From: a virus | Virus record (IMG/VR): IMGVR_UViG_3300045988_078326 | Direction: 5' to 3' (one strand) | DNA length: 64,000 nt | Shown: positions 70 through 63,358 of the stretch, piece by piece | How positions within the stretch are numbered: position 1 is the first letter of the stretch | How the letters are laid out: the number at the start of each line of letters is the position of its first letter | Notes under the pieces: model-generated | Seen by the model: the letters and a program-made list of their open reading frames with translations, nothing else | Database searches by the model: none | Told to the model about the DNA's origin: nothing | Position numbers and translations under genes: made by a program

Positions 70-603
70 ATGGCTAAGCACATGGTAAAATGTTTTTACT
101 GTGGAGAAGTATTTGATGCATCAACTACACCATACGTTAAACCAAATTCAAGACGTTACGCTCATAAGACCTGTGCGCAAACGGCCGAGGAAAATAAAAC
201 GCAAGAAGAAAAGGATAGACAACTATTAGAAAATTATATAAAGAAGTTATTTGGAATTAACTGTATTTCTCCAAAAATTAAAAAACAAATTGAAACCTTT
301 AGAAAAGATAATAATTATTCATATACTGGAATGTATAAAACTTTAAAATACTTTTTTGAGATAAAAGGTAATTCTATTGAAAAGGCTAATGGAGGAATAG
401 GAATAGTTCCTTTTGTCTATGATGAAGCATATCTTTATTGGAGAGCATTATGGGAAGCAAGAGAAAGAAATGAGCAAATAGATATAGGAAAGTTTATTTT
501 GCCTGTAAGAGAAGTCCATATAGAACCTCCTCAACGGCAACCAATGAAACATATACGAAAGCTATTTACTTTCTTAAATGAGGAGGAAGCGCATGAAGAG
601 TAA
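70..603 (+). CDS. N-terminal zinc-ribbon protein; possible replication-initiation or helicase-loading factor
   Basis: 177-aa ORF with an N-terminal CxxC...HxxC cluster. It is the first gene of the replication module and overlaps the dnaB-like start. The functional assignment is inferred. Confidence 0.35.
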   Translation: MAKHMVKCFYCGEVFDASTTPYVKPNSRRYAHKTCAQTAEENKTQEEKDRQLLENYIKKLFGINCISPKIKKQIETFRKDNNYSYTGMYKTLKYFFEIKGNSIEKANGGIGIVPFVYDEAYLYWRALWEARERNEQIDIGKFILPVREVHIEPPQRQPMKHIRKLFTFLNEEEAHEE

Positions 604-2131
604 TTATATAGATACAGCGGCGATTACTTAGGTAATTGGATGTGTATTCAATAATGCTTCTATTCTTGATGATACAGATAAGTATATAATTCATGAAGAT
701 GACTTCCAAGAAGATTTTCATAAGATAATTTTCGGTAGTATCTATAATATCCATCTAACAGGTAGTCAAGTTAATATAGACGCGATTATAGATTATCTAG
801 CAAACAGACCAAAGTTTGACGCCATATTTAAGCAAAACAAGGGTGTAGAATATCTCCTTGAAGCATCGCAAAATGCAAGGCAAGATACTTTTAATTATTA
901 TTATAATAGATTAAAGAAGTTTACTTTGTTAAGAGCATATAGCAATTTTGGTCTTGATGTTAGCTATCTTTATGATCCAAATAATATCCTCGATACCAAA
1001 AAACGCCAAATGCAAGAAGATTGGCTGGATAATACTAGCTTAGTTGAAATAGCTCATGCTATTGATACAAAAATAGATGAAATCAAAAGTAAGTACATAG
1101 AAGATGATCTTGGATTAGGCTATCAAGCCGGAGACGGAATCAATGAACTTATTAGTGATTTAGAACAGCATCCCGAAGTTGGTATTCCACTATATGGCCC
1201 GTTAATTAATACAGTAACAAGAGGAGCAAGATTGCGAAAATTTTATTTGCGGTCGGCGGCTACGGGAACCGGTAAAACTAGATCTATGATAGCGGATGCG
1301 TGTAATTTTGCGTGCAATGAAATCTATCATGACCAATTTGGATGGATTAAAAATGGAACCTCTCAACCAACTTTGTTTATTGCCACAGAGCAAGATAAAA
1401 GCGAAGTTCAAACAATGATGTTAGCTTTCCTATCTGACGTAGATGAAGAACATATCCTTAACGGTCAATACTTTGAGGGTGAAAAAGAGAGGGTGCTAAA
1501 GGCCGCAGAAATAATTAAACGCAGTCCAATTTGGATAGAAGAATTACCAGATTTTTCTTTACAAGATGTAGAGAATAAAATAAAAAAGAATATTAGAGAA
1601 AATGAAGTTAAATATGTTCTTTTCGACTATCTTCAAACGTCGCTTAAAATTCTTGAAGAAATTAGTAAGAAGTCTGGGGGAGTTAGATTAAGAGAGGATA
1701 ATATCTTATTTATGCTCTCCGCTAGATTGAAAGATTTAGCTAATAAATATGGTGTATTTATCATGTCTGCAACTCAATTAAACGCCGATTATTAGAGTAG
1801 TGAAACGCCAGATCAAAATCTATTAAGAGGCGCAAAAAGTATAGCCGATAGAATAGACGTTGGCATGATTCTACTAAGTGTTACAGATGAGGACTTAGTT
1901 AAGTTAGATCCAATACTAGAGGGTAACAAGAACTTATTGCGTCCGAATCTAAAATTATCTATCTATAAAAATAGACGAGGTTCGTACAAAGGAGTATATC
2001 TATGGTGTTCTGCTAACTTAGGAACTTGTAGAATTTTACCACAATTTTGTACTAATTGGAGACATGAGATGGTGGGCATTGAAGATATTCGAGTAATTGT
2101 CGATGAAGGGCCAGCAGCTTGGGAAAAATAA
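593..2131 (+). CDS. dnaB: DnaB-like replicative helicase
   Basis: ATG at 593 joins ORF fragments 926..1795 and 1865..2131 in one frame. In-frame TAGs sit at 629-631 and 1793-1795. The N-terminal domain reads ...IDYLANRPKFDAIFKQNKGVEYLLEAS..., and the Walker A is RSAATGTGKT. The C-terminal part is DnaB-like. Confidence 0.85.
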
Positions 2132-2322
2132 TGGAGGAATATATAATGAAGAATAGTCAAGGTTTAGAGTACAGAATGAGCAAGAAAATGTTTAATGAGC
2201 TTCTTTCAAGCAGAACAGAGGAAGAAAAGAAACAGAATCCTTATGTTTATGTGATACAAATTATCAATGAGCAATTTGGCTTGAAAGAAACAGTAAATAA
2301 AGTATCTTTCTATGATGCTTAA
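2119..2322 (+). CDS. hypothetical small protein
   Basis: 67-aa ORF with an RBS-like GGAGGAA upstream, sitting between the helicase and primase genes. Confidence 0.4.
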   Translation: MGKIMEEYIMKNSQGLEYRMSKKMFNELLSSRTEEEKKQNPYVYVIQIINEQFGLKETVNKVSFYDA

Positions 2323-2324
2323 TT

Positions 2325-8199: not shown

Positions 8200-11100
8200 A
8201 TGAGTTACTTTAACAATCATTCGCATACGGAGTTTAGTAACTTGCGTTTGCTTGACTGTATAAATAAACCAGAAGAGCTGATTGATAAAGCTATTGAAGT
8301 TGGATTAACGGGAATAGCTATCACGGACCACGAATCTCTCTCCGCGCATATGAGAGTAAATAAATATGCGAAAAAAATCAAAGAAACTAATCCCAGTTTT
8401 GTTATAGCTCTTGGTAATGAAATCTATCTTACAGATACTAGAGATTTAGGACAAAGATACTATCACTTTATCTTAATTGCTAAAGACGAAATTGGTTATA
8501 GGGGACTAAAGGAGTTATCTTCTATCGCCTGGATGAATGGTTATTATGATAGAAGAATGGAAAGAGTTCCTTTGCTTAAATCAGAATTAAAAGATGTAAT
8601 GCAGAGATTTAAAGGGCATATTATTGGCACTACTGCTTGTATTGGCGGTGAATTAGGTCAATCCATTTTAAATCTAAATAATTGTGAAGAAATAAAAGAT
8701 GAAGTAAACGCAAAGCGTTATCATCAACAGATTGTAGATTTTATTACTTTCTGTATAGATGTATTTGGTCAAGATGATTTTTATATTGAGTGCGCACCAG
8801 CGTCATATCCTGACCAGATTATTGCAAATAAAAGAATGTTAAAAATTGCAGAAGCGTTCTCTGTTAATATGTGTATCGGCACAGATGCCCACTATCTAAC
8901 AAAAGAAGATAGATATGTCCATAAAGCATATTTAAATTCTAAGGGCGGAGAAAGAGAAGTCGATAGCTTCTATGAATTTACTCGTCTTATGGACGAAACT
9001 GAAACTAGAGAATTACTTCGTTTGAGCTATGAAGATAATATTATTGATTGGATTTTTAATTGCTCAAACGAGATTAAAGATAAAATAGAATTTTACTCTC
9101 TGGAAAAGCATCAGTCTATTCCAGAAGTAGAAGTAACTGATTACCCTCCTACTGCATGGTGGGGAACTAACAATGATTATGCAGATGAAATGTCTAAGTA
9201 TCCAATCCTAAAATCACTTTTCACTTCCGATAATATTCAAGAGCGTTATTGGATAAATGAATGCTGGAAAGCGCTAGAAGCAAAAGGTATTGATTGGATT
9301 GATAGACCAGAATATCCAGAAAGACTTGAAGAAGAAGCAAGAGTAAAGAGAGTGATTGGAGAGAAATTACAAACTTGTATGTTCGCTTATCCAAATACAT
9401 TAAAACACTATGTTGATTTGTTTTGGGATTGCGGAAGTACGGTAGGTGCGGGTCGAGGTTCGGCTTGTGCAGCTCTTAATCATTATCTTCTTGGAATTAC
9501 TCAGCTGGATCCAATCGAATGGGATCTTCCTTTCTGGAGATATATCAATGACAAAAGAACAGAACTTGGAGATATTGATTTGGACTTGGCTCCATCTAAG
9601 ATTCAAAAAATCTTTGCTGAAATCAGAAAAGAACGAGGAGAATTAGGGCTAGTCCAAGTATGTACCTTCGGAACTGAGGGAACTAAATCTGCCATATTGA
9701 CAGCCTGTAGAGGTTATAGATCTGACGATTATCCAGAAGGTATTGATGTTGATATGGCTCAATATATGAGTTCCCTAATTCCGCAGGAAAGAGGCTTCTT
9801 GTGGCCCATTGAGGACGTCGTTAATGGAAACCCAGAAAAGGGACGTAAAGCAGTTACTACATTTGTAAATACTGTAAATCAATATCCCGGTCTTCTAGAT
9901 ATTATTACTAGAATTCAAGGGCTTGTAAATAAACGTTCTAGTCATGCATCCGGCGTTATTTTGTTTGATGAAAATATTTTCGACAGTGCCGCAGTTATGA
10001 GAACACCAAAGGGTGCATTAATTACTCAATGGGATTTGCATGACCAAGAGGCTGCTGGTTCTGTTAAGTATGACTTTCTCTTAACAGCAGTTCAAGATAT
10101 TATTATCCAAGCTGTTGAATTACTACAAGAAGATGGAGTTATCGAAAAAGATTTAACTTTAAGAGAAGTATATAATAAATATCTTCATCCATCTGTCTTG
10201 CCTCAAGATGATAAAAAAATGTGGGATGCTTTAGCTAATGGTGATGTTCTTGGATGTTTCCAATTTGACTCAAGCGTTGGTGCACAAGCCGCGAAGAAGA
10301 TTAAACCTCAAAATCCGCATGAGATGGCTGACGCGAATGGATTGATGCGCCTAATGACTTCCGAAAAAGGTGCTGAAACTCCAATGGAGAAGTATGTTCG
10401 ATTTAAGAATAATATTTCTCTTTGGTATCAAGAAATGGACAGAGAAGGATTAACAAAAGAAGAACAAAGGATTCTCGAACCGCATTTCTTACGTTCTTAT
10501 GGTGTTCCTCCTAGCCAAGAACAAATGATGACCATGTTACAAGACGAGAATATCTGCGGATTTACTCTTGAAGAAGCGAATGCTGCAAGAAAAATTGTTG
10601 GTAAAAAGCAAATGAATAAAATCCCAGAACTTAAAGAAAAGGTCTTAAACTCTGCGAAATCTCCCGCGTTAGGACATTATGTCTGGACTTATGGCATCGG
10701 CCCGCAAATGGGTTATTCGTTCAGTATTATCCATGCTCTTGCTTATAGTTTTGTTGGTATGCAAACTCTGTATCTTGCTACTCATTTTAATCCGGTATAT
10801 TGGAATACGGCGTATCTGATTGTAAATAGTGGTGCTATTGATGAAGAAGAAGGAGAACAATCAGATTATACAAAGATTGCAAAAGCAATAGGAGAAATTC
10901 GTAATGCAGGAATTAAGGTTTCCCTTGTGGATATTAATAATTCTGACTTTGGATTTAAGCCAGATGTAAAAAATAACTAGATTCTTTTCGGATTAAAGGG
11001 TTTGTCAAATGTTAATAATGAACTGATAAAAACTATTGTAGATAATCGACCCTATGTATCTCTTGTTGATTTCTATAACAGAGTTCATCCTAATAAACAA

Positions 11101-12102
11101 GCAATGATTTCTTTAATTAAAGGTGGAGGATTCGACCAGTTTAGTTCACGTATGGAGGCTATGATTCAATATATATGGATTACCTGCGATAAGAAAAAGA
11201 GAATTACTTTACAAAACCTTCCTGGGTTAATGAGATATGATCTTATCCCCTATGAAGAAAAGTTTGTGATGCCGAAAAGAGTGTATGAATTTAATAGGTA
11301 TCTAAAAGCAGAGTGTAAAGATCCTTACAATGTAGCAAAATATAAACTCGACGAAAGAGCAATCACCTTTCTCGTTGAAATTGATTGCGAGGATCTATTG
11401 GAAACAGATAATCTAGCATGGTATATTGACATAAAAGCCTGGGATAAAATTTATCAAAGTTACATGGACGTATTTAGAAATTGGATCTCTGAAAATAAAG
11501 AAACGATTTTAGATAATTTAAACACCACCATCTTTATGGAAGATTGGAAAAAGTATGCTTCAGGGAACATATCTTCTTGGGAAATGGAATCTCTATGTTT
11601 TTATTATCACGACCATGAGCTAGCGAATATTAACAATAGCAAATATGGATTTGTAGACTTCTTTAGCCTTCCAGAAGAACCTCAAGTAGATAAAGTATTT
11701 AAAAAAGGTGCTTCTTTAATTCCTATTTATAAACTGCATAAAATCTGCGGGACGTGCATTGCAAAAAATAAGGTGAAGAGTACTGTATATCTTCTTACAA
11801 CAACTGGAGTAGTAGCAGTTAAATTCAGACAAGAATACTTTGCTTTGTTTGATAAACAAACCTTCCAAAGAAACGCAGATGGAACAAAGAGAGTTGTAGA
11901 GAAGTCTTGGTTTAATAGAGGTAATATGATTGTTGTGCAAGGGATTAGACGAGGCGATGAATTTGTAACAAAGAAATATGCAAGTTCTGGAGGCCATCAA
12001 CTTTATCACATTGATGAAATTATCAATGGAACAGATCTAATCTTGAGAAGCGAAAGAAAACAAGGAGAAGATGAAGATGAAGATAGTAGCATTAATGGGT
12101 GA
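8200..12102 (+). CDS. dnaE: DNA polymerase III alpha subunit (DnaE-type), about 1300 aa
   Basis: ORF 8200..10980 has a PHP domain at the N-terminus, plus a polymerase core. It ends at TAG 10978-10980, and the same frame continues as ORF 11002..12102, which encodes the HhH/OB C-terminal region (ILFGLKGLSNVNNELIKTIVDNRPYVSLVDFYNRV...LIKGGGFDQF). It is therefore one gene with a sense TAG. Confidence 0.85.
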
Positions 12103-12622
12103 AGCAGGAAGCGGTAAGGATACTATTCTCCATAGAATTATGGAGAAGTATCCTTCCTATTTCAATGAAATTATTAGTTGTACGACTCGACCTCCTAGGC
12201 AGGGAGAGAAAGAAGGAGTTAATTATCACTTCTTATCCGTTGAAGATTTTATTAGAAAAATCTTAAATGGAGATATGCTAGAGGCTACTGAATTTAATGG
12301 TTGGCACTATGGAACAGATAGTCAAAGTCTAACAATAGATAAGATAAATATAGGAGTATTTAATCCAGAAGGAGTTAGATGCTTACAGGAAGATGAAAAC
12401 ATTGAACTGTATGTATTTTATGTGCGGGCCGCGGGTAAGTAGCGTCTTTTAAGATAGCTGAATAGAGAAGAAAATCCTGATGTAGACGAAATAATTAGAA
12501 GATACAAAGCGGATACAGAAGATTTTAGTTTTCTTAATGATATAAAATATATAACTCTTTAGAACAATACCTTAGATGATATTGATATAGCTGTTGATAC
12601 TATATTTGGACAATTCTATTAA
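12071..12622 (+). CDS. gmk: guanylate kinase-like nucleoside-monophosphate kinase
   Basis: P-loop GEAGSGKDT and motif SCTTRPPRQGEKEGVNYHF. The frame continues through three TAGs (12440, 12452, 12560) to TAA 12620-12622, giving a typical guanylate-kinase C-terminus. Confidence 0.65.
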
Positions 12623-12679: not shown

Positions 12680-14869
12680 TTGTATTATATGTTACAAATA
12701 AAGAAAAGAAATGGTATAGTAGTTCCATTTGATAGAGAACGAATTATCAACGCTATCAATAAAGCCTTCATCGAAGTAGATGGAGAATTATATGAAGATG
12801 ATACTGCAAATGATATTGCAGATGAAATTAAGTATGCAGTAAAAACTTCTGACGATGTGGTTTCTGTAGAAAAAATTCAAGACATGGTGGAAGATTTTCT
12901 TATGAAGTCTGAGCGGAGAGACGTTGCTAAAGCATACATTAGATATAGATATAAAAGAGAAATTGCCAGAAAAGGGCAAGACGATTTTATGAAAGCCTTT
13001 TCTGCCAAAGTGCAGGGTTCAGATATAGAGAATCAAAATGCTAATGTTGATGAAATGTCATTCGGCGGAAGAGTTGGTGCAGCTTCTGATTTGCAAATGA
13101 AGAAGTACGCTCTTGATTATCTTGTATCTAATAAATCACGCGCAAACCATGAGAATAATGAGATTTATATTCATGACTTAAATGCTTATGCAGTAGGTAT
13201 GCATAACTGTCTTTCTATTCCTTTTGATGATTTGCTTGCAAAAGGATTCAATACAAGACAAACTGATGTACGACCAGCGGGTTCAGTAAATACAGCTTTT
13301 CAACTTGTTGCTGTAATCTTTCAGCTTCAAAGTTTACAGCAGTTTGGTGGCGTTTCTGCTACACATCTTGATTGGACTATGATTCCTTATGTAAGAAAAA
13401 GTTTCTATAAACATTATATGGATGGATTGACATATATCGAACAAGTCATTAGCATGGATGATAGATTAAATAATCAACTGTCTATTGAAGATCCTATCTA
13501 TAAGGAATTTAAAGGCGCATATTCATATGCTATCGCTATGACAGAAAAGGAAGTTCATCAAGCGGTTGAGGGAATGTATCATAATCTAAATACTCTTCAA
13601 TCTCGTTCCGGCAATCAACTTCCATTTACTTCTATTAACTATGGAACTTGTACTCTTCCAGAAGGAAGAATGGTTACTAAAGCTCTTCTGGAAGTCTCTA
13701 TTGAAGGACTTGGTAGACTTCACAAGACTTCAATTTTCCCCTGTGGAATTTTCCAATGTATGAAAGGTGTAAATAGGAAGCCTGGAGATCCAAATTACGA
13801 TTTATTTAGATTAGCATTAAAGTCTACTGCCACTAGATTATATCCTAATTATGCTAATGTAGATTGGTCTGGCAATGCCGGATATGATGTAAACGATCCA
13901 AGTACATATTTCTCTACAATGGGATGTAGAACTGCTAATGGATTCGATATTAACGGCTTAAAGCAACAGAAAGACGGTAGAGGAAATATCTGTCCTGTTA
14001 CTATTATAATGCCAACAATAGCAATGGAAGCTAATGGTGACGTAGAAACTTTTATGAAACTTTTAGATATTAAGATCGAAGAAGCGAAAGATATGCTTCT
14101 TGAAAGATTTGAATATATCTGTGCGCAACCTGCGGATTCGGCAAAATTCATGTATGAAAATGGCTTAATGGCTGGATATGATGGAATTTCTACTCGAAGT
14201 GCTTTACAACATGGCACATTGAGTCTTGGGCAGATTGGATTGGCAGAAACTTTACAAATTCTTATTGGATGTGATCATACTGAGCCAGAGGGCATGAAAT
14301 TAGCAAAAAGAATAGAGCAGTTATTTAAAGATAGATGCGCAGAGTATAAAGAAAAATATAGACTTAATTTCGGAGTATATTATACTCCAGCCGAGAATCT
14401 TTGCTATACCTCTCTTAAAAAATTCCGTGATAAGTATGGTATCATTCCTAATGTAAGCGATAGAGAGTTCTTTACTAATTCTATGCACGTACCAGTATGG
14501 CACCAACTCTCTCCATTTGATAAAATTGATATTGAAAGTCAATTAACTGGATATTCTTCTGCTGGTTGTATTACTTATGTTGAGTTAGATACTGGCATGG
14601 AAAAGAATATTGATGCTATGGAGACATTAGTAAATTATGCTATGGATAAAGATATTCCATACTTTGCAATAAATGTTCCATGTGACACCTGCCTAAATTG
14701 CGGATATACTGGCGAGTTTAATGATAAGTGCCCTCAGTGCGGTAGTAAAGAAATTCAACAGTTAAGAAGGGTAACAGGCTATCTAACTGGTAACTACAAG
14801 ACCGCCTTTAATAAAGGAAAGCAGGATGAAGTAAACAATAGAGTTAAACATGTGGGGTATATGGAATGA
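12680..14869 (+). CDS. nrdD: anaerobic ribonucleoside-triphosphate reductase NrdD (class III)
   Basis: 729 aa with an N-terminal ATP-cone. The C-terminal zinc ribbon is CDTCLNCGYTGEFNDKCPQCGS, and the glycyl-radical motif is RRVTGYL. The real start is probably ATG 12689 after an AAGGAG RBS. No TAG codons. Confidence 0.85.
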   Translation: MYYMLQIKKRNGIVVPFDRERIINAINKAFIEVDGELYEDDTANDIADEIKYAVKTSDDVVSVEKIQDMVEDFLMKSERRDVAKAYIRYRYKREIARKGQDDFMKAFSAKVQGSDIENQNANVDEMSFGGRVGAASDLQMKKYALDYLVSNKSRANHENNEIYIHDLNAYAVGMHNCLSIPFDDLLAKGFNTRQTDVRPAGSVNTAFQLVAVIFQLQSLQQFGGVSATHLDWTMIPYVRKSFYKHYMDGLTYIEQVISMDDRLNNQLSIEDPIYKEFKGAYSYAIAMTEKEVHQAVEGMYHNLNTLQSRSGNQLPFTSINYGTCTLPEGRMVTKALLEVSIEGLGRLHKTSIFPCGIFQCMKGVNRKPGDPNYDLFRLALKSTATRLYPNYANVDWSGNAGYDVNDPSTYFSTMGCRTANGFDINGLKQQKDGRGNICPVTIIMPTIAMEANGDVETFMKLLDIKIEEAKDMLLERFEYICAQPADSAKFMYENGLMAGYDGISTRSALQHGTLSLGQIGLAETLQILIGCDHTEPEGMKLAKRIEQLFKDRCAEYKEKYRLNFGVYYTPAENLCYTSLKKFRDKYGIIPNVSDREFFTNSMHVPVWHQLSPFDKIDIESQLTGYSSAGCITYVELDTGMEKNIDAMETLVNYAMDKDIPYFAINVPCDTCLNCGYTGEFNDKCPQCGSKEIQQLRRVTGYLTGNYKTAFNKGKQDEVNNRVKHVGYME

Positions 14870-15339
14870 AGTATGCAGGTATTATAAAAAATGACTTTGC
14901 TGCTGCTCCCGGAGTATCCTTGAGTTTCTTTACTCAAGGATGCCCCCATAGATGTAAAGGGTGTCATAATCAAGAGACTTGGGATTTTGATAGTGGCAGA
15001 GAATTTACTCATGAAACTCTTAATTCAATCTTAGAAGGGCTAACTGCTAATGGAATTAAGAGAACTTTATGTATAATGGGCGGCGAACCATTATGTCCAG
15101 AAAATACATTTTTAACCCATCTAGTAATACAAACCGCAAAGGAGACAATTCCTGATTTGAAGGTTTATCTATGGACTGGATACTTGTATGAAGATTTAAG
15201 AAAAACAACAGATACAGTTATTTAGAATATACTTCAATTAACTGATGTGCTAATTGATGGGCCATATATTGAAAATGAAAGAGATATTACAGAGCCTCTA
15301 AGGGGTAGTCGTAATTAGAAGATAATCTACCTAAAATGA
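14866..15339 (+). CDS. nrdG: anaerobic RNR activating enzyme NrdG (radical SAM)
   Basis: CPHRCKGCHNQ (CxxxCxxC). The frame continues through TAGs at 15223 and 15319 to TGA 15337-15339, giving the conserved C-terminus ...LIDGPYIENERDITEPLRGSRNQKIIYLK. Confidence 0.8.
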
Positions 15340-37448: not shown

Positions 37449-37536
37449 AGTTAACGCCTCCTTTTTCTCATCTAAGATATTTAAAAAATCTTATATCATT
37501 AATAAAGATAATTGGCCAAAAGGCTGACGAGTTTTA

Positions 37537-37905: not shown

Positions 37906-37930
37906 AATTAAAACTCCTTTTTCTCTTATG

Positions 37931-38666: not shown

Positions 38667-38679
38667 ATATAATCACTCC

Positions 38680-42624: not shown

Positions 42625-42657
42625 GAATAATAGGGGAGATTTTCTCCCCTATTATTC
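42625..42657 (-). other. stable stem-loop at the 3' end of the tape-measure gene
   Basis: 15-bp perfect inverted repeat gaataataggggaga/tctcccctattattc with a 3-nt loop. It overlaps the tape-measure stop codon and has no adjacent U-run. Confidence 0.35.
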
Positions 42658-48600: not shown

Positions 48601-51351
48601 AAGTAAGGTTACTCCCAAAGTGATTAACCCAATAAGTGGTAAAGCAGTTGAGATAGCCGCACCAACAGTAGTAATACCAGCAGCCGCAGTTTTAGCTGAA
48701 GCTCCAACTGTTAAATACGATATTGCAGTTAAACTATTTTGTAATGCCTGCTTTTTAAACAAGGTAGAGATTGTTGGTAATAACATTCCAAAGTTAGTAA
48801 GAATAACTGTAAAATCTTCAACAGTAAACTCTCCCTCTTTCACAGAATTTGTAAAAGTAGAGAACATGGAATTAATACTTGTCATTCCCATTGTAACTTG
48901 CGATAAAGTGGTTCCTACTTTAACCAATGTCTCAGCCCAGTCTAAAGTAGCATATCTGTTATTCTTTAACCCCTCACTAATTTCTTTTGTTTTCTACTGT
49001 AATAATTCTAATCCCTATCTAAAAGCCTCAGCACTAATTTCATTATTCTTAAAAGCTGCTACAAGACCACTTAGATCATTTTTAAATTTAACAGAACCAT
49101 CACCTAAAGAAGTAATAACTCTATTTAATGCAGCAACGTCTGATTCTGCCCCCTTTAATGCTTCCTAAAACTACTAAGAGGTAGTAAGATATTCTATTAT
49201 CTCCTAATTTGTTGCATCTTGAGCACCTTCAAAAAGATTTAGGCTTCTTACTAAATTAATAGTTTCTTGAGAGATTTCATTGGTTCCAGAACCAACTAAT
49301 TTCTATACTTGCTAAAACTTAGAAAGACTTACGCTCGCCACTTTTAATTTGTCAATTAAACTCTAAAGGGCTTGCTAATTTGTCTTTGAACTATAGAGAA
49401 TTTCTGTTTCTATGTCCTCATAAAAAGAAAATTTATTTTCATCTTCTAACACAAGCGCCGATAGTAGATTATCCTTCCATTTTTTATTGGGAACTAAACG
49501 CTCAGACAAACTATTTGTATAAGCTGTAATAAGTTCATCTGATTTGCTAACCTACTACCCAATTAAATTAACCTATGTCTATAAAACCTTTACTCTATCT
49601 AAATCTTGTTGTAAAATACCAGCCTAGCGCTCAGATAGTTGTGTGGCCGCAGCGGACGCTTCTCCTTCAAGCTAAACAATCTAAGCTTGAGTATTTACCA
49701 TCTATCCCTAAATAGTATTATCAAGTGCGGATTTCGCGATAATATCAGCCATCTATGCGGCTTCAGTTCTCAAAGTTTGCGCTCTATCCTTTTCTCTCTA
49801 TCCGATAATACCAAGATTAGAAGCAATATCTCTCATTCCTTGCGCAATCTTATCACCAAAAGCCTTATTCATCAGTAAAGCAGTTGTTGCTAAAACGCCA
49901 GACATTCCGCCTAAACCATCAATAATATCAGCAGTTGTACTTAAAATAGGACTAAGAACATCATCTACCCCAATATAAAAATCAGGATTTATTAAACTAT
50001 CATAAATATCTTCCGCGGATGCTCTTACTCTATCTCTTGCCGCCTCCCAAGATTCAGCATAAATATCTGCTTGTTCTTGTAGAGATCCTTCTGCTCCATA
50101 AGAACTCTCCAAATTTTCCTAGAAGAAATCCCAGTTATCCATAAGAGCAATAAGACGAGTATATTGACGTACTCCAGCTACAGTCTGTGCTAATGCAATC
50201 TATTGATCATTAGATAGAGTTTCCCATTTCTCTCCCATTTCATCTAATAAAGTATCCATAGTCTTGATTTCTCCATTAACGTCAAAGATGTTAATTCCAA
50301 CTTTATCAAGAGCCTAAGAATATTTATTTAGAGTAGTTCCATCATCAAGTGTTTCTCCAAGATTTAAGCCCTGAATACGTGCAAATAATGTTCTAAATGC
50401 AGTACCTACAGTATTCGCAGATTCACGAGTTGTAGCAGTAACAGTAGCAAGCGCAGATGCGGCATACTCATAACTCAAACCTACCGTCTCTGCAACTGCG
50501 GCAAACTGCTAGATACCTTCTGAAATTTCATCAGAGCTTGATGCAGTATCTGCACCTAAGCGCACCATGACGTCTGCATAATACTCAAGACTTTTACTTC
50601 CATCATAGAAGTTATTCCATACCGCAGTTAACTAGTCAGATGCAGTCTAAGCGCTAACACCCGCGGCGTTTGCCATTTTTATAGTAGTTTCAGTTCTATC
50701 TAAAACTTCCTACTCAGTAAGGCCCTACTGATAGTAAATCAGAGCTGCGTCAGTATAATCTACTGTAGTTGTACTCAATGCCTTAGCTGCTTCGTTAGCC
50801 TACTTAGCAAAAACAGCCATATCCTCGGCAGAATTTTCAGTAACTATACGAATGTTTGTCAGAGATTCATTTAAATCTTTTGCATAACCATAAGCTGTCT
50901 CTAAAGAGCCAATAAAACCCTATAAAGTGCTTGCTGTAATCTACCAACGAACCGTATTTTTCATTGTAATCCACAAATCAGACATTAACTTATTAGTTCT
51001 GATTAACGGAGTTTCCGCCGCCATAATAGCCTGAGAAAGATTTAAGAATGTTTCTTGCCCCTAAATTCCCAGTTTGCTTAGTTGATTATAATAGTCTGTT
51101 AAAGTCTTTCCGCTTTTTACTAAACTATCATTAAAAGCAGTCAAATCTAACTTACCTGAATTTCCATTAGTAGCCATCTAAAGATTACGGCTCAATTCAA
51201 GGGCCGCCAAAGATGCCTACTGAAGTTCACTAGAAATAGATGGCTAATTGCCTAATTTCTATAAACTATTTATAACTTCATTAACAGAGGTTTTTAGCTG
51301 ACTCGCGTCAGCGGTAAACCCAATCTAATAGTTTAATCTTTTATTAGCCAC
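42652..51351 (-). CDS. tape measure protein (about 2900 aa) with a C-terminal globular domain
   Basis: GTG 51349-51351 after AAAGGAGGAAAAGGACT. Seven ORF fragments (49798..50112, 48532..48927, 47524..47766, 45472..45678, 44917..45186, 44581..44802, 43033..43422) all lie in the same frame and are joined by sense TAGs. It is a coiled-coil-rich protein with TM-like segments. The C-terminal region is ...VTYIGGTYYHDSYGTDPAGRRGPGKKVRITN... Ends at TAA 42652-42654. Confidence 0.6.
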
Positions 51352-52055: not shown

Positions 52056-53492
52056 TTAATATGCGTATTTAGATAGTATATTATTATTTAAAGTTGCTGC
52101 AATAGTTAATTTATTTATAACTCCATTGACTATATCACTACGAGTAATTGCATCTAATATGTTTGCTCCAGAATTACCATACCACTTATTACCTAAAACG
52201 CCTTCTCCACCGATAGAAACCACTTCATGAGCACTATTTCTAACAATATCATCACAGATATTATTAATAATTCGCTAGATAGAAAATACTCTACCATTAA
52301 CTATGATAAACTATCCTAAATGGCCTTTCTATGAGCTAAACTCTCCTGACTAAATCCACTAATTAAAGAAAGATGCCGCGACAGAGGCTCGTATATTATT
52401 AAATGATTCTTCAAAATCAGCTCCAGTATATCTGTGAGCAATCATATTATAAGCAAGATATTTTTCTGGCTAACCAGAAAAATATTCTCCAACATTCATA
52501 CTTGAAGAAGCAGAAATTTTATTCTAAGATACTTTCTTATTTTGCCATCTTGCATTTACATTTGTCCCTATTTCTATATTAAAAGTCTAATTACCCTTGG
52601 TTACTTGTAAACTAAAAGTATCATTATTAAATATATTTGTAGTACCTTTAGACTTAGAGACATTATTCTATCCTTTATCAGCCCATCTCAATTTCCCACC
52701 AGATTGCGCGATTACCTTATCTAATATACTATCCGCGGTATTAACTCCTATTGATATACCTTCTGCTACTATCGCCTAGCTAATCTAATTTCCAATAACT
52801 TTTCTAAATATATAAGCAATAGTATTAGCAAAAGAACGAGAATTTACTGATCCCTATTCACTTAAACGAGTAACAGCTCTATTTAAAGAATCTATTACAT
52901 CTTTCGCGATATTTATATCCCCTTCCCCAACTGCCATAACATAACTTTGCTATGCCTAATCTATCTAAAAACTAGTTCCTATTAGCTATCTTCCAATCTA
53001 TGTTAAAGCATCAAGAACATTAACATTTATCATATTCGCTTTCGTTAAAGCTGATATAAGTAATCTAAAGAAATCATTCACTCTCTATATTTCCGGTGTA
53101 CCAGTTGATAACAAGTTATTAAAACTTCCAGCCTATTGCAATATAGTATTATAGTTTTCAAAATCTACCTATCCGCCAGCTAATTCAATACCTTCATTAA
53201 TACCAGCGGCAATCTAATCAAGAGTAGAATCCAATAGAGTTCCCATTTCTAGATCACTTAGAATCTTTAATCCACTTGCTGCGGAAGGCGCCTTTAGCTG
53301 CATCTATTCTTGAATTGAGGAGATCTAAGCCTCAATTCCCGCGGTCTATGCTTTATTTACTGCCTATTGATACTATGCGCTGAATAAGGTATTCGCTGAT
53401 TCTACGTCGCCATATTCTCTCAAATGGCTACTGTGATATACAATATAGTTAATAGACCAACGCTAAACATAATCATAAATATCAATATCCAT
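52056..53492 (-). CDS. extremely TAG-rich structural protein in the tail-tube position (about 478 aa)
   Basis: RBS GGAGTAATTGGAGTT before ATG 53490-53492. Hand translation is continuous (MDIDIYDYV(Q)RWSINYIVYHSS...LTIAATLNNNILSKYAY), with about 40-45 sense TAGs against about 8 CAA/CAG codons. Ends at TAA 52056-52058. No standard-code ORF longer than 60 aa is seen here. Confidence 0.5.
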
Positions 53493-53549: not shown

Positions 53550-54944
53550 TTAAATTCCGTCATCCTCGGTGACAGAGACTAACTTATTGCGGGTGCTAGT
53601 CTTAGCTTTTGCTGCGGCAGATGTAGCAAAGCTAAGTTTGTTATTAATGGTATAAGTCTTTTCAAAATCACCATTAATCTTATTAATCTTTGCGGTAATA
53701 GGAGTTGCCTGATCTTCGCTAGTAAGAATTACAAGCAATCCTTGAGCTAACTCTTCGCCGCTAACGGTTTGAGTCTTTGTATTACCTTCAATTCTTGGGT
53801 CTGTAGAGAAGTATCTCTCATAAGCTGGGTTTGTAGTTACCACATTATATTGGGTACTATCACTCTCTACTGGGATTTGCAGGCTGATCTGAGCAGCTTC
53901 TGCTATAGTATCGCCATAAGCCTCAGTGTCATAAGCCTTTCCTGTTACACTACCAGTAACATCAAGCTCTGCGGCTGTAGCACTATTAGATACGAAACTT
54001 ACAGTCACATCAGCAGCTTCGCTCTCATAAGTACCTACATTCTCAGAGCATGGCTCACGAGTTTCCTCGGTTTCACCGCTTTCATCAGTGATTACTTGAA
54101 TTGCAGCCAATACCTTATGGGTTTGGTCGAACTTGGTGTAATCAGGGAAAGCGTCCATTGTAAAGGTAAAGGTAGAAGGATCTCCGTTAGCTGCCATGCT
54201 GAATGTGAAGTTACTCTGAACTTTACAGTTAGGAATAATAAATTCAGCAGGCATATCTACGCCATCGCTCTCACGACGGAATAGAGTTGAAGCCTCAAGA
54301 TAATAGTTACCACCAAACTTATCAGCAGTAATTTCAATCATCTGTGCTCCACCGGTACGCTTTACATAGTAGTCAACTAAAACAATGGTTCCCGCAGGAA
54401 GTACGCCAGCATGAGAATAACAAGTTAAAGTTGTTTTGCCATCTTCTGTGTAACTTACAGAAACAGGAATACAAGGCTCGGCATTAACTTGACCATCATC
54501 GCCTAACACCATCACAAAGATGTCGGCAGAACGGTGATACATTTCATTATCATGGTCAGTAAATCCATTCCAGCAAGCCTTGTCTGGAACAATAATAGTA
54601 TTGGCAGTCTCAACTTCAATCTGAGAAGTCTGGTGAACATAGATAGGAGCTTCTTTTGTTGCATCAAGTAGGCCAGCACCAGAAAGAATAGAGAAGCTTT
54701 CTGGAGAAAGTAGAGCATCTTCCATTGTAAAGGTTAGAGTACGCTCACCTTCCCAAGCAATCAATCTAGAATATCCACGTCCGCCCTGCGCATATACTGT
54801 TGTTGCAGCACCCTCAAGAGTAGAGGTTCTTAAAGTGTCGAAATATAAAACTGGTTCATTTTTGTAGAACTTACGATTACCAAGGGTTTGATAACTCTTC
54901 GCACGAAGCACTACATCGCAAATCTCACGAATACCAAAACGCAT
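53550..54944 (-). CDS. contractile tail sheath protein
   Basis: 464 aa. The N-terminus ...SYQTLGNRKFYKNEPVLYFDTLRTSTLEGAATTVYAQGGRGYSRLIAWEGERTLTF resembles PBSX XkdK-type sheath proteins. RBS GGAGGAATTAGCTC. No TAG codons. Confidence 0.75.
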   Translation of the reverse strand: MRFGIREICDVVLRAKSYQTLGNRKFYKNEPVLYFDTLRTSTLEGAATTVYAQGGRGYSRLIAWEGERTLTFTMEDALLSPESFSILSGAGLLDATKEAPIYVHQTSQIEVETANTIIVPDKACWNGFTDHDNEMYHRSADIFVMVLGDDGQVNAEPCIPVSVSYTEDGKTTLTCYSHAGVLPAGTIVLVDYYVKRTGGAQMIEITADKFGGNYYLEASTLFRRESDGVDMPAEFIIPNCKVQSNFTFSMAANGDPSTFTFTMDAFPDYTKFDQTHKVLAAIQVITDESGETEETREPCSENVGTYESEAADVTVSFVSNSATAAELDVTGSVTGKAYDTEAYGDTIAEAAQISLQIPVESDSTQYNVVTTNPAYERYFSTDPRIEGNTKTQTVSGEELAQGLLVILTSEDQATPITAKINKINGDFEKTYTINNKLSFATSAAAKAKTSTRNKLVSVTEDDGI

Positions 54945-58686: not shown

Positions 58687-59739
58687 TTAACCATTATTTG
58701 GATTTGGGTTAGTATTATCAAGCTCACCTTGAAGTTCAGTATCAACGTAAGAGAAAATGTTATTTGCCATCATTACGCCAACTCCGACCTTGCGGTAAAC
58801 CTGAATATCACGAGACCAGTCGTCGTTATCATCGCGCTCGCGCACGTGAGTAGTACCCTCAAAAGCAACTTTAACAGGACGAGTATCTGCTCCACCGGGG
58901 ATAACCCAAGCATAACCAGGGTCAATCATCTTTCTAGAGTTAGTCTCATCCTCAAGGGTTTGAGGTAGAATTACCACTCTAGTTCCCTTGTAGTTAGCAA
59001 GGTATCCAGTTCCCCAATACTGATCTCTCATGTTATCAGAAATCCAAGCCTCGTTGTCTGGAATCATCTTTACTGCAAACTCACGAGTACAGTAAATAGT
59101 GGGCTGACCATAAGCACTAGCAGTATTTACAAGATAATCCATAGTAGCTTCATCAAAACCAGCAACGGCACAACGGTTTGCCGCGGGAAGCTGATTAATA
59201 GAACCCATAAGAGCTTGAGCAATCTCTCTATAAATAAGCTCTTGCATACCCTCAGTTACAATCTGAGTAAGTTCTGCGAAGTTTACTCTTCCGTCGAGGA
59301 ACTCCTCGAATCCGATACGAGCAGCTCCGCCGATAGCACTTGTACCAACTTCGAAGCTCTCAGAACCGAGCTTAAAGGTCTCGTATACGCCAGCAAGTCC
59401 CACACGAGTGATGAATTGCTTAGCACGGGTAAGTCCAGTTCTACGAGTAAATACAGGTTTATCTCCCTGTCCGAAAGTTCTAATCTCGGCAAAATTGCCA
59501 TAAGAATTGAGTAAACGATTAGGAACAACTTCATCCATAGTTTGCTCAATTAAAGAGAATAGAGTATGTTTATTTTCTCTATAAAGTTCATCTGTGCCAA
59601 CAAGCTCATTTAACTCATTGCGCAAAGTGGTGTTCAAAGCGTCGTAGCTAAAGGATTCTCCTTGATAGCTATAGGTACCAGAAGGATTTGCATTGGCGAC
59701 AGTCTTCATTAAACTAAGTAAATTAGCTTTATCTAACAT
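58687..59739 (-). CDS. major capsid protein (HK97-fold family)
   Basis: 350 aa. It sits between the scaffold and head-completion genes, with composition and length typical of Firmicutes myophage/siphophage major capsid proteins. No TAG codons. Followed by a strong terminator hairpin. Confidence 0.65.
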   Translation of the reverse strand: MLDKANLLSLMKTVANANPSGTYSYQGESFSYDALNTTLRNELNELVGTDELYRENKHTLFSLIEQTMDEVVPNRLLNSYGNFAEIRTFGQGDKPVFTRRTGLTRAKQFITRVGLAGVYETFKLGSESFEVGTSAIGGAARIGFEEFLDGRVNFAELTQIVTEGMQELIYREIAQALMGSINQLPAANRCAVAGFDEATMDYLVNTASAYGQPTIYCTREFAVKMIPDNEAWISDNMRDQYWGTGYLANYKGTRVVILPQTLEDETNSRKMIDPGYAWVIPGGADTRPVKVAFEGTTHVRERDDNDDWSRDIQVYRKVGVGVMMANNIFSYVDTELQGELDNTNPNPNNG

Positions 59740-60448: not shown

Positions 60449-60461
60449 TCTTTAATCCTCC

Positions 60462-61589
60462 TTAAATACTGCTCTTAGCAGTCTCACGAATTGCTTTTAC
60501 CCAATCAGGAACATTATCTGTCTCTGGATGCTCCAAATTGAAAAGTCCTTTTGGGGTCTTATCATCCTCTTCATGTTTATCCTCAAGGTTAAAGTTTACC
60601 TTATTTCTAACACAAAGAATAGATAACTTAGCTTCAATATCATCTAAAGAATAAGTGTCAATATGCTCCACGACGTCTTTCTTATCATCATCGCTAAGCA
60701 TATAGAAACTATCAATCATTTGTTGCTTATTTTGACGTTCAGCTTTGAGCTTAAACTCTTTCAATTCATCAACTTCGGTATCTAGAGTATTCTTCTCTTG
60801 CTCAAGAGCAGAATATTTACTCTCTAATTCATTAAATTTAGCAAGCAACTCTGTATATTCAGTTACATCTTCGAGATTATACTTGCCTTTCTTATCCTTA
60901 TCCTCTTTTCCCTCTTTCTCAGGGGCAGGAGTTCCAGAAGAATTTTCTTTCTCCTTGTTTTTATCCTCTGGATTAGGATTATTTTTCTCGAATTCGGTAA
61001 GTGCTTTATTCTCATTATCCATAGGTTCTTGAGAGCCTCCTTTATTAAAAGTTTCTTTTAATTGATCCATCATAGAGTATACCATAGTTTTAAGTTTCTA
61101 AAACTCTTGATTACCCTCTAAAGAAAATTGAGAACTAAATTGAGCTCCCTCGAAACAAGGCTCAACATTTTCTCCGAGAACACATAATTTCTCAATCAAT
61201 GCTTCATTGTAGATAAAGATTCTTTCATTTGTTTTTTCATCTTTTGTCCAAAATCCTGACTGATTTTTTTCATTTAATTCCATAGAATGGTTGTTTCCAT
61301 TTTCTAAAATTCTCTTAGATTCTGGATAAACACCAGTCCAAATATATACATCAGTAACTAGATATTCTCTTTCTACACCTTCATCATTGAACTTCTAAAA
61401 CCATACATTAGCGTTATCTGGAACAAATCCATAAGGTCTTGTTACATCAACAATAGCAAACTTGCCGTCTTTAATATCAATCGCTCTATTGTGACCTTCA
61501 AAATCCTTTGTCTCTTGATTAAAATAGCCAACAATAGGACTTCCCGGCAATTTACGCCCCATCTCTACAGCTACTTCCTTAGTAATCAC
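60462..61589 (-). CDS. scaffolding-like protein (acidic coiled-coil C-terminal half)
   Basis: ORFs 61395..61589, 61098..61283 and 60462..61085 share one frame and are joined by sense TAGs at 61395-61397 and 61098-61100. GTG start 61587-61589 overlaps the portal stop as GTGA. The C-terminal half is Glu/Lys-rich coiled coil. Confidence 0.5.
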
Positions 61590-63358
61590 TGTATGATTGC
61601 GGTTTGGCTGTTGACCGACATAACAAACTTTACAAACGCCTTTGCTAACTAGAGGAGAAATCTAAGTGTTCTAAATATATTCCATTGTGTTTAAAATAGG
61701 AACACTAATATGCAAGTTCAATCCCTCCTTTATGACGAACTTTCTTGATTAGCTATTGTCTTATCAGACTTTTCGCCATCTTCCTTCTTTGGCCTTCCGG
61801 CTCCATTATTGTTAGTTGAACTTGTCTATTTATTCTAAGAATTAGTATTAGATGACTAATTATTATTACCCAAATCTTTTCCGCTTCTGGTATTAGAACT
61901 CATAGGAGGAATCATAATCTCCGCCAAGTTCAATACTTCATTCTCAAACGTTAATGTAGCTAAAATGCTTGATTGAGAATGCCCTAAAGCGATTTGTGGC
62001 AACATCTTAGAATATCCTAACTGAGCGTGTTCTTTATACAACTTTGATAATTCTTTATAATTAAACTATGTTGTTTCTAACATCTCAGCTCTAAATTCAT
62101 AATGATTCTTGCGATTGAATTTTTCTACCACTCTATTTAGTAATTCTGTAAACATGAGAGGTATATCTCTAACGCTAGATTCATCAGTCAATATAGAATT
62201 TGTTACAGCAATATTTCCATCGGCATTAAACAAATTATGAGTTACACCTGAATTGTTGTAAACTGTACGTTCAACCTTTTCCAAATCGTCGGTTGTTGTA
62301 TTGGAGTTATTGTCTTTTGTATCAATTTTTTCAATATCCGCAAAAGTTGTCAATACATCTACTCCAATAGCTCTTTTAAGCATTGCAACTGCGTTATTAT
62401 GAATATCTCTGGCTTCATCAACGTCAAAAATTAAATCACCATTCTTATCAAGAGGCAACTTCTAAATGATGATTTTCAATAGTTGCTACATTGTTTTTTG
62501 ACGATCCAATTCTTGCGCCTAATCCAAATCAATAATAGAAGGAATAACTCCCGCAAGAAAGGGAAATTCATTATCGTTTAAGCTAAACTTAACTGAAACA
62601 CTAGGATCTAGAGGATACCAAACAGTTGTACTCCCCGGGTAATCTCCCTTTAATTTCCCCTACTTATAAAGAATATAAGCCTTCTATATATCTTGAGGAA
62701 AAATCTTTAATATCTGAACCTTATACTGTGGGTTTGGGAAATAAACATCAAAAAACTCAAGATTTAATTCAACAATAGGATTAGGGCCTTGGAAATATCT
62801 ATTGCGACAATATGAAGCAGGTAGCTTCTAAATGGCAAACCTATCTCCGAAGTCAACAATTATACCATAATATGCCCCTTCTTTGATGATATCTAATGAT
62901 ATATTACCAAACATTCTCTTTATATTAGATTTATCAAGATAAAGCAATACTTTAGAAAAGTCTTTTAATAACTTCTCCTTATCTTTCTGCGCGCTTACGG
63001 TATATGGGGTTATATACCAATCAAATCTGTATAAGAAAGCTAGGTATTTACATAATCTGTAATATATACCGCTACTTTCATAGAAATAATTAGAGATTTC
63101 TCTTAGAGTTCTATAATCATGCTTATAAATAGCATTTAATACGAACTTCTTATCTCCATAATTTCTATTTATTTTCTTATATGTACCTAGATTAATAAGC
63201 GCATCATCTACCGAGCGAAGCCCCACCCGCATCTTAGCATAATCAATGCTCTTATAATCTAAGTCATCTTCTTCCTCTTGCTGCTAATAGCGAGTAACGT
63301 CTTGATTTAATAAATCAAAACCTTTGGCTCTAATACTTTCTTGTCTACTCTTTAACAA
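61586..63358 (-). CDS. portal protein (about 590 aa)
   Basis: TTG 63356-63358 after GGAGGTGA. ORFs 62828..63232, 62066..62458 and 61856..62041 share a frame. It continues through sense TAGs (61856, 61835, 61826, 61749) to TGA 61586-61588. Ser/Asn-rich acidic C-terminal tail. Confidence 0.5.

What the first reader, a model, noticed from the sequence alone, without database searches (positions are those of the whole stretch)
593..63358. Genome-wide reassignment of the amber codon TAG to a sense codon, in early as well as late genes
Under the standard code many conserved genes break into fragments exactly at TAG. Read in the same frame, the fragments rejoin into canonical full-length proteins. 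The clearest cases are listed here.
- DnaB: in-frame TAGs at 629 and 1793.
- DnaE: TAG at 10978, with the conserved HhH/OB C-terminus immediately after it.
- NrdG: the C-terminal GSRNQ box is recovered.
- RecJ, RuvC, the guanylate-kinase-like enzyme, the retroelement reverse transcriptase, the tape measure protein (seven co-framed ORF fragments) and the giant fibre gene behave the same way.

None of these reconstructions contains TAA or TGA, and both of those codons terminate genes at the expected positions. This fits a TAG-recoded phage rather than pseudogenisation. Most recoded phages described to date confine the reassigned codon largely to late genes. Here the very first replication genes already need it: codon 13 of dnaB is TAG.
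Basis: seen in the sequence. Interest (0 to 1): 0.9.

Follow-up and report, generated by a model that had tools for sequence, protein, structure and literature searches.

The report
Amber-to-glutamine recoded gut phage
This is part of a common SPbeta-like human-gut phage that reads the stop codon TAG as glutamine using its own suppressor tRNA, a real but already described kind of recoding that is, as usual, concentrated in late genes.

Summary
In 56 tiled genes there are 345 in-frame TAG codons and no in-frame TAA or TGA. All 56 genes end in TAA (44) or TGA (12). Full-length Pfam domains run straight through the TAGs.

TAG means glutamine. Opposite the TAGs, the standard-code relative Enterococcus phage EF1 has Gln in 23% of columns against a 3.7% background. 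Among strains about 99% identical, 32 of 35 changes at TAG codons are to or from CAG/CAA.

The window has no tRNA. The same phage species carries a tRNA with anticodon CUA about 32 kb upstream of the window, in the early region.

The "early as well as late" emphasis is overstated. TAG supplies 15% of Gln codons in the replication block and 51% in the virion block (p = 3e-20). It is absent from the capsid and tail-tube genes.

This phage group is published as TAG-recoded, DNA-processing genes included (Babkin 2023, phAss-1 relatives). Variable recoding of replication genes is also published (Borges 2021).

Verdict: real, well explained, already known, low novelty.

The parts
593..2131 (+). DnaB-type replicative helicase, 512 codons, in-frame TAG at 629 (codon 13) and 1793 (codon 401)
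   Evidence: PF00772 and PF03796 span the TAGs. The same TAGs are present in the independent contig L008.
3712..5463 (+). RecJ-like DHH exonuclease, 583 codons, 13 in-frame TAG (52% of its Gln codons), probable TTG start
   Evidence: DHH, DHHA1, RecJ_OB. Conserved in L008.
8200..12102 (+). DnaE (Pol III alpha), 1300 codons, a single TAG at 10978 (codon 927)
   Evidence: The collection's gene call of 1300 aa carries PHP, DNA_pol3_alpha, finger and HHH_6.
12071..12622 (+). Guanylate-kinase-like enzyme, 183 codons, 3 TAG
   Evidence: PF00625, residues 3-177, crosses all three TAGs.
12689..14869 (+). NrdD anaerobic ribonucleotide reductase, TAG-free (31 CAA/CAG)
14866..15339 (+). NrdG activase, 157 codons, TAG at 15223 and 15316. 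The second lies in the C-terminal GSRN(Q) motif.
   Evidence: PF13353, residues 15-154, reaches profile end 137/137, beyond the TAG at codon 151.
17331..17810 (+). RuvC-like resolvase, 159 codons, 7 TAG
   Evidence: PF02075, residues 5-151, profile 2-148/148.
27052..28176 (+). Reverse transcriptase of the diversity-generating retroelement, 374 codons, 6 TAG
   Evidence: RVT_1. TR/VR pair.
29414..42600 (-). Tail-fibre and baseplate genes: 8 genes carrying 101 TAG in all, including genes of 1306, 929, 636 and 634 codons with 32, 27, 17 and 7 TAG
   Evidence: Homologs in EF1 and phAss-1.
42652..51351 (-). Tape measure protein, 2899 codons, 104 in-frame TAG (51% of its Gln codons)
   Evidence: PF10145 on the collection's call of 2841 aa.
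52056..53492 (-). Virion protein of 478 codons with the highest TAG load among the longer genes (27 TAG, 77% of Gln codons)
53550..54944 (-). Tail tube protein (YomU_Tube), 464 codons, 15 Gln codons, none TAG
   Evidence: PF27173; P of zero TAG = 2e-5 at the late-block share.
58687..59739 (-). Major capsid protein (YonB family), 350 codons, 13 Gln codons, none TAG
   Evidence: and (P = 1e-4).
61730..63358 (-). Portal-position protein, 542 codons, 11 TAG
   Evidence: Aligns to EF1 and phAss-1. No Pfam hit.

Best explanation
The window is about 44% of the roughly 140-148 kb genome of an SPbeta-like siphovirus of the human gut. It belongs to the group that contains phage phAss-1. In this phage TAG is decoded as glutamine (genetic code 15), and TAA and TGA are the only terminators.

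Decoding is done by a phage-encoded class-I tRNA with anticodon CUA. It lies outside the window, about 32 kb upstream, in the early region and on the same strand as the replication genes. It sits in the cluster tRNA-Ser(UGA), tRNA(CUA), tRNA-Leu(CAA), tRNA-Cys(GCA), DUF2828.

Inferred steps, not shown here:
- The host uses the standard code.
- The suppressor is transcribed from the start of infection and is charged with Gln by host enzymes.
- It competes with host release factor 1, so every TAG costs some yield.

That cost would explain three features of the distribution. TAG is rare in early and replication genes. It makes up half of the Gln codons in most virion genes, which are made once the suppressor has accumulated. 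It is excluded from the most abundant virion proteins, the capsid and tail tube.
For: TAG is a sense codon:
- 345 in-frame TAG against 0 TAA or TGA in 56 genes, and all terminators are TAA or TGA.
- The ORF gain is specific to TAG.
- Pfam domains are continuous across TAGs.
- There is no excess of TAG in the last 10 codons of genes: 12 observed, 9.7 expected.

TAG means Gln:
- Opposite 103 TAG columns, standard-code phage EF1 has Q in 23.3%. The background is 3.7%, and the figure opposite ordinary CAA/CAG codons is 24.6%.
- phAss-1 gives 22.5% Q.
- The log-likelihood for Q beats the next residue, E, by 23 units.
- In 12 loci about 99% identical to the window, 32 of 35 changes at TAG codons are TAG to or from CAG/CAA.

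Suppressor tRNA:
- ARAGORN finds a 75-nt tRNA(CUA) in L156 and L157 at about 8903-8979. It has a clean cloverleaf, an encoded CCA end and G73. Of the tRNAs in that locus it is most similar to the phage's own tRNA-Gln(UUG), at 71%.
- L156 and L157 are 99.4-99.8% identical over 8.7 kb to L161.
- L161 lies on contig NODE_11_length_290702, which carries the window sequence at 99.3% identity.
- An orthologous tRNA is present in phAss-1 and in other relatives.

Gradient: Fisher p = 2.6e-20 for early against late genes. MCP, tube and the 229-aa protein are TAG-free. Flanking early regions have 2.6-6.9 TAG per 1000 codons.

Literature:
- PMC10607447.
- bioRxiv 10.1101/2021.08.26.457843.
- Metaproteomic proof of code 15 in crAss-like phages, PMC9523058 (abstract).
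Against: - No tRNA lies in the window itself, by ARAGORN or by Rfam at E <= 1.
- The suppressor was found on contigs of the same species, not on a contig shown to carry the window end to end.
- The charging identity of the tRNA is inferred from alignments, not measured.
- The host and its code are unknown. The only bacterial-genome hits are whole-phage contigs binned into Bacillota MAGs.
- About 25 kb of the genome was not examined, so a phage release factor or GlnRS cannot be excluded.
- The partition is not clean. Genes upstream of the suppressor, and the first genes of the presumed early operon right of the window, also hold TAGs. These include a 112-aa gene with 3 TAG and FolD with 6. Temporal control is therefore at best a gradient.
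Confidence: 0.93

Rival explanations
1. The phage simply follows its host. The host bacterium already decodes TAG as a sense codon, so no phage-driven code switch takes place and the TAG distribution only reflects codon-usage drift.
For: The host is unidentified. TAGs occur in some genes upstream of the suppressor tRNA and in the first genes of the presumed early operon.
Against: The phage carries its own tRNA(CUA). TAG is strongly depleted in early genes and absent from the most abundant proteins, which is the pattern expected when TAG decoding is costly or delayed. Borges et al. report that phages following a recoded host have about 90% of genes recoded, while those on standard-code hosts have 26-71%. 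Here the figure is 71% in the window and far less in the early flanks. Relatives with known hosts infect standard-code Bacillota (EF1 on Enterococcus). To my knowledge no bacterium with TAG reassigned to Gln is known.
Confidence: 0.04
2. TAG is read as a sense codon but for an amino acid other than glutamine, for example Glu, Lys or pyrrolysine (ARAGORN labels CUA tRNAs 'Pyl').
For: ARAGORN's label. E and K are the next most frequent residues opposite TAG.
Against: The residue profile opposite TAG matches the profile opposite ordinary CAA/CAG Gln codons. Q wins the likelihood comparison by 23 log units. TAG interchanges with CAG/CAA in 32 of 35 strain differences, including two-base changes to CAA. 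No Pfam family of pyrrolysine biosynthesis (PylBCD) or of PylS appears on any gene call in the roughly 122 kb surveyed.
Confidence: 0.02
3. The TAGs are real stops: a decaying or defective phage, or assembly or sequencing error.
For: Under code 11 the genes are fragmented.
Against: Only one of the three stop codons is ever in frame: 345 against 0 and 0. The positions are conserved across independent assemblies from many samples. Exact proteins of this phage are indexed in about 740 to 2,250 blocks of public assemblies. Domains continue beyond the TAGs.
Confidence: 0.01

Closest known systems
phAss-1 and its monophyletic group of SPbeta-like gut phages (Babkin et al. 2023, PMC10607447; NCBI 'Caudoviricetes code 15 clade')
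   Same: - TAG decoded as Gln, with recoded TerL, portal, tape measure and tail-fibre genes plus several DNA-processing genes.
- A phage-encoded tRNA-Sup(CTA). The window species' tRNA is clearly orthologous to phAss-1 'sup2'.
- A genome of roughly 135-148 kb and the same gene order. MCP is 51% identical.
- No phage aminoacyl-tRNA synthetase seen.
- One listed relative, BK048656_ctOa11, is recoded, has a Sup tRNA, and matches this phage in size and GC: 147,880 bp and 35.3% GC. The window is 34.8% GC, and contigs of the species run 139-148 kb.
   Different: - A different genus from phAss-1 itself, which has 44.5% GC and only about 50% amino-acid identity.
- One suppressor tRNA was found, against three in phAss-1.
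- There is no tRNA next to nrdD, and the large tRNA array beside the NAD-salvage genes is missing.
- Identity with BK048656 could not be tested, because that record is not in the searchable collections.
Stop-codon-recoded phage clades of Borges et al. (Lak, crAss-like, Garnet, Topaz and others; bioRxiv 10.1101/2021.08.26.457843) and the code-15 crAss-like phages validated by metaproteomics (PMC9523058)
   Same: - TAG is concentrated in structural genes.
- Replication genes are variably recoded.
- The suppressor tRNA lies in the less recoded part of the genome.
- The proposed model is the same: standard-code early translation followed by suppression.
   Different: - An unrelated lineage (SPbeta-like siphovirus, probable Bacillota host).
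- No phage release factor or aaRS was found in the 122 kb surveyed.
- The most abundant virion proteins (MCP, tube) are TAG-free.
Enterococcus phage EF1 and Bacillus phage SPbeta
   Same: Homologous virion and replication modules: the Pfam Yon/Yom/Yor families and 38% MCP identity to EF1.
   Different: EF1 uses the standard code. Treating TAG as sense lengthens its ORFs only 1.05-1.11-fold, against more than 2-fold here.

Membership tests
Genetic code 15 (TAG = Gln) recoded bacteriophage | Conserved genes are interrupted only by in-frame TAG. TAA and TGA are absent from the reconstructed frames and serve as terminators. | tested here: met
   345 TAG, 0 TAA and 0 TGA in frame. Terminators are 44 TAA and 12 TGA. 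Pfam domains are continuous across TAGs.
Genetic code 15 (TAG = Gln) recoded bacteriophage | TAG positions correspond to glutamine in standard-code homologs | tested here: met
   Q at 23% of TAG columns against a 3.7% background, equal to the profile of CAA/CAG codons. The likelihood for Q exceeds E by 23 log units. TAG to or from CAR accounts for 32 of 35 strain changes.
Genetic code 15 (TAG = Gln) recoded bacteriophage | Phage-encoded suppressor tRNA with anticodon CUA | tested here: met
   Absent from the window. Present in the same species about 32 kb upstream (L156 8903-8977 and L157 8905-8979). The link is 99.4-99.8% identity to a contig that carries the window.
Genetic code 15 (TAG = Gln) recoded bacteriophage | Host uses the standard code, so the code is switched during infection | not testable with these tools
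   Host unknown. Only whole-phage contigs binned into Oscillospiraceae and Eubacterium MAGs were found. The early-gene depletion of TAG is consistent with this feature but indirect.
Genetic code 15 (TAG = Gln) recoded bacteriophage | Peptides with Gln at TAG positions | not testable with these tools
   Requires proteomics. This has been done for crAss-like phages only (PMC9523058).
phAss-1-related SPbeta-like phage group (Babkin 2023) | Homologous signature proteins (MCP, TerL, tape measure, DnaE) and shared gene order, with a genome of about 90-150 kb | tested here: met
   23 of the 56 window proteins align to phAss-1 and 26 to EF1. MCP is 51% identical to phAss-1. Module order is collinear. 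Contigs of the species are 139-148 kb.
Diversity-generating retroelement (side feature) | RT, accessory Avd-like gene, and a template/variable repeat pair differing at template adenines | tested here: met
   RVT_1. The repeats are at 25919-26020 and 26642-26743, 85% identical, and the mismatches are at TR adenines. The call on the accessory gene at 26116-26610 rests on its position and size only.

The most novel reading that the evidence does not exclude
TAG may work here as a genome-wide expression dial rather than a simple early/late switch. Its share of Gln codons falls from 50-79% in most tail and baseplate genes to about 9-20% in early genes, and to zero in the capsid and tail-tube genes. 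Even dnaB needs it at codon 13. That would imply that suppression is incomplete, that the suppressor must be among the very first transcripts, and that selection tunes the TAG load gene by gene to the required protein yield.
Probability: 0.3. Interest if true: 0.4.

Novelty: already known. Interest (0 to 1): 0.15.

Why it matters
Practically, this very widespread gut phage is badly mis-annotated under code 11. Its exact proteins are indexed in hundreds to thousands of blocks of the public-assembly collection. Gene callers need code 15 to recover its tape measure, fibres, terminase, RecJ and other genes.

Biologically it adds one more well-documented, abundant example to the known pattern: amber-to-Gln recoding with a phage suppressor tRNA and late-gene enrichment. 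It does not overturn that pattern.

Tried and rejected
- A megablast of dnaE against the GenBank phage collection found nothing. The closest deposited genomes match only at the protein level.
- Walking right of the window with the FolD protein in IMG/VR found no relatives.
- The first look-up of the 119-aa protein landed on a contig that ended there.
- No tRNA lies in the window, in the 10 kb to its left, in the 15 kb to its right, or in the 30 kb to the left in relatives. The suppressor only appeared after walking further left.
- A crude comparison of ORF gain under code 11 and TAG-sense could not tell whether relatives that lack a called CUA tRNA (L087, L089, L092 and others) are recoded. 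Early regions carry too few TAGs.
- I considered YqeY (a GatB-tail-like tRNA-Gln-binding domain), PTH2 and Thg1, all encoded in the flanks, as code-switch helpers. YqeY has no homolog in recoded phAss-1, and PTH2 is present in non-recoded EF1, so there is no support.
- The bacterial-genome scan gave no integrated prophage and so no host.
Full report
**1. The observation**

The window is 34.8% GC. Treating TAG as a sense codon doubles the summed length of ORFs of at least 100 aa, from 12,017 to 25,839 aa. It raises the longest ORF from 930 to 2,904 aa and the number of ORFs over 500 aa from 2 to 11. Treating TGA as sense gives 14,805 aa with no longer maximum.

I tiled the window with 56 genes covering 19,848 codons, about 93% of the sequence. 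These genes contain 345 in-frame TAG and no in-frame TAA or TGA. The two other frames of the same genes hold 1,770 TAA and 1,305 TGA. All 56 genes end in TAA (44) or TGA (12).

TAG at 629 is codon 13 of dnaB, 1793 is codon 401 of dnaB, and 10978 is codon 927 of dnaE.

With Q placed at the TAGs, Pfam models run through them end to end:
- DnaB N-terminal and C-terminal domains
- DHH, DHHA1 and RecJ_OB
- Guanylate_kin, residues 3-177
- Fer4_12 in NrdG, to the last profile position and beyond the TAG in the GSRN(Q) motif
- RuvC, profile positions 2-148 of 148
- RVT_1

The TAGs are not assembly noise. The DnaB and RecJ TAGs checked in an independent assembly (L008) are the same. Across 12 public loci about 99% identical to the window, 683 TAG codon comparisons are conserved.

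One detail needs correcting. The tape-measure frame has 104 TAGs and 106 fragments, not seven.

**2. Which amino acid**

I aligned the 56 proteins, with X at each TAG, to the standard-code relative Enterococcus phage EF1. The residue opposite 103 TAG columns is Q in 23.3%. The background is 3.7%. Opposite ordinary CAA/CAG codons of the window the figure is 24.6%. K and E follow, as they do for true Gln. phAss-1 gives 22.5% Q, plus six TAG-on-TAG columns.

A likelihood comparison used the window's own substitution profiles. It puts Q 23 log units ahead of E, the next best residue.

Among strains 99% identical to the window, 35 codon changes involve TAG. Of these, 32 are TAG to or from CAG (24) or CAA (8). 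TAG is therefore glutamine, that is, genetic code 15.

TAG is not enriched in the last ten codons of genes: 12 observed against 9.7 expected. There is therefore no sign that it doubles as a terminator.

**3. What the phage is**

The public gene calls on identical contigs carry the SPbeta-specific Pfam families YonB, YonD_N, YonG_N, YomU_Tube, YomV, YomW, YorF and YorH.

The major capsid protein is 51% identical to phage phAss-1 (OQ749652, filed by NCBI under 'Caudoviricetes code 15 clade'). It is 38% identical to Enterococcus phage EF1.

Exact proteins of this phage are indexed in about 740 to 2,250 blocks of public assemblies. They also exist in GenBank as TPA 'Caudoviricetes sp.' proteins, DAO08457.1, DAO08478.1 and DAO08629.1.

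Contigs of the species are 139-148 kb.

Babkin et al. [quoted passage not shown] They list a divergent relative, BK048656_ctOa11 (147,880 bp, 35.3% GC), as recoded and carrying a Sup tRNA. That is probably this species or a near neighbour, but I could not test it.

**4. The decoding device**

The window has no tRNA by ARAGORN and no tRNA hit in Rfam at E <= 1. ARAGORN does find the three CUA tRNAs of phAss-1, which serves as a positive control.

I walked outwards on contigs of the same species and of relatives. I found no tRNA in these stretches:
- the 10 kb to the left of the window;
- the 15 kb to the right of the window;
- the 30 kb to the left in relatives.

Further left, every close relative carries the cluster tRNA-Ser(UGA), tRNA(CUA), tRNA-Leu(CAA), tRNA-Cys(GCA) just upstream of a DUF2828 gene.

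The link to the window species runs as follows:
- L161 lies on contig NODE_11_length_290702.
- That contig also yields L158 and L006, which match the window at 99.3%.
- L161 overlaps L156 and L157 over 8.7 kb at 99.4-99.8% identity.
- L156 and L157 carry the tRNA(CUA) at about 8903-8979.

This places the suppressor about 32.4 kb upstream of window position 1, on the same strand as the early and replication genes.

The tRNA is 75 nt long and folds into a clean cloverleaf. It has an encoded CCA end and a G73 discriminator. It is nearly identical to the tRNA of relative 084596 and clearly orthologous to phAss-1 'sup2'. Of the tRNAs in that locus it is most similar to the phage's own tRNA-Gln(UUG), at 71%.

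No Pfam family for a release factor or a GlnRS appears on any gene call in the roughly 122 kb surveyed. About 25 kb was not examined.

**5. Distribution of TAG**

| Region | TAG per 1000 codons | TAG share of Gln codons | Genes with TAG |
|---|---|---|---|
| Replication and nucleotide block (1-18312) | 5.9 | 15% | 10 of 18 |
| Virion block (29414-63777) | 24.1 | 51% | 18 of 23 |

The difference gives a Fisher odds ratio of 0.18 and p = 2.6e-20.

The early regions that flank the window in the same species are lower still, at 2.6-6.9 per 1000 codons. There, 63 of 82 genes are TAG-free.

Inside the virion block the most abundant proteins avoid TAG altogether:
- tail tube: 15 Gln codons, P = 2e-5 at the block's TAG share
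- major capsid protein: 13 Gln codons, P = 1e-4
- the adjacent 229-aa protein: 8 Gln codons, P = 0.003

The base after TAG is A in 40% of cases, against 27% after CAA/CAG. T is depleted, 14% against 23%. From memory, a purine at this position favours amber suppression in E. coli.

The partition is a gradient, not a boundary. Some genes upstream of the suppressor contain TAGs. So do the first two genes of the presumed early operon right of the window, a 112-aa gene with 3 TAG and FolD with 6.

**6. Mechanism**

Shown here:
- TAG is sense and means Gln.
- The species encodes a CUA tRNA in its early region.
- TAG load is graded by gene class.

Inferred:
- The host is a standard-code member of the Bacillota.
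- The suppressor is made from the onset of infection and is charged by host enzymes.
- It competes with RF1, so TAG-rich genes are translated efficiently only once the suppressor has accumulated, and genes needing the highest output avoid TAG.

This is the model of Borges et al. They also state that recoding of replication machinery is variable between clades and is extensive in Lak phages.

**7. Rivals**

- A host that already reads TAG as sense is unlikely. The phage has its own suppressor, and TAG is depleted in early genes.
- Another amino acid is excluded by the alignments and by the strain polymorphisms.
- Pseudogenisation or sequencing error is excluded by the codon specificity and the conservation across assemblies.

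**8. Novelty**

The phenomenon, the lineage and the presence of TAG in DNA-processing genes are all published. But it is neither exceptional nor evidence against the late-gene bias, which is strong here.

I rate the finding as already known and of low interest. The only mildly new details are the TAG-free capsid and tube genes and the graded TAG load.

Noticed in passing
window 24268-28176: A complete diversity-generating retroelement. The target gene (24268-26034) has its variable repeat at 25919-26020. An Avd-like gene lies at 26116-26610, the template repeat at 26642-26743 and the reverse transcriptase at 27052-28176. The repeats are 85% identical and the mismatches sit at template adenines. 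The DGR genes themselves contain TAG codons.
   Followed up: partly
window 53550-54944, 58687-59739, 59759-60448: The tail tube, the major capsid protein and the adjacent 229-aa protein contain no TAG at all. They are embedded in a block where half of all Gln codons are TAG (P = 2e-5, 1e-4 and 0.003). The corresponding phAss-1 genes are also annotated as intact under code 11.
   Followed up: partly
window, all 345 in-frame TAG: The base after TAG is A in 40% and T in 14% of cases. After CAA/CAG the figures are 27% and 23%. This is a context bias that may favour suppression over termination.
   Followed up: no
window 21889-22596 (- strand): A small serine recombinase or invertase-like gene (N-terminal [11 protein letters not shown] motif) carries 4-5 in-frame TAG. 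This differs from the TAG-free integrases reported for recoded temperate phages. Its role (inversion or integration) is unknown.
   Followed up: no
window 3712 (start of RecJ): RecJ seems to start at a TTG directly after the stop codons of the upstream gene. The public gene call for this gene is truncated to 394 aa even though the caller read through TAG.
   Followed up: no
L162 4643-11999, L165 10560-11746, L161 7492-8766 (same species, outside the window): The early region encodes a set of tRNA, RNA and NAD-related functions:
- Thg1 (tRNA-His guanylyltransferase)
- an AAA_33/KTI12-like kinase
- metallophosphatases
- RNA ligase
- PTH2 peptidyl-tRNA hydrolase
- a PARG-like protein
- a stand-alone YqeY (GatB-tail-like) protein
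- an NAD salvage cluster

YqeY has no homolog in phAss-1 or EF1. PTH2 is also present in the non-recoded EF1.
   Followed up: partly
contigs behind L006, L007, L012, L163 (290,702, 293,444, 297,083 and 294,660 bp): Several independent assemblies give contigs close to twice the 145-149 kb genome length. This suggests head-to-tail dimers from assembly of a circular or circularly permuted genome, rather than prophages with host flanks. Not verified.
   Followed up: no
L087, L089, L092, L094, L096, L107, L133 (IMG/VR relatives): These relatives keep the tRNA-Ser(UGA), tRNA-Leu(CAA), tRNA-Cys(GCA) cluster, but ARAGORN calls no CUA tRNA between Ser and Leu. I could not decide from the early-region loci whether they are recoded or keep a suppressor elsewhere.
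   Followed up: partly
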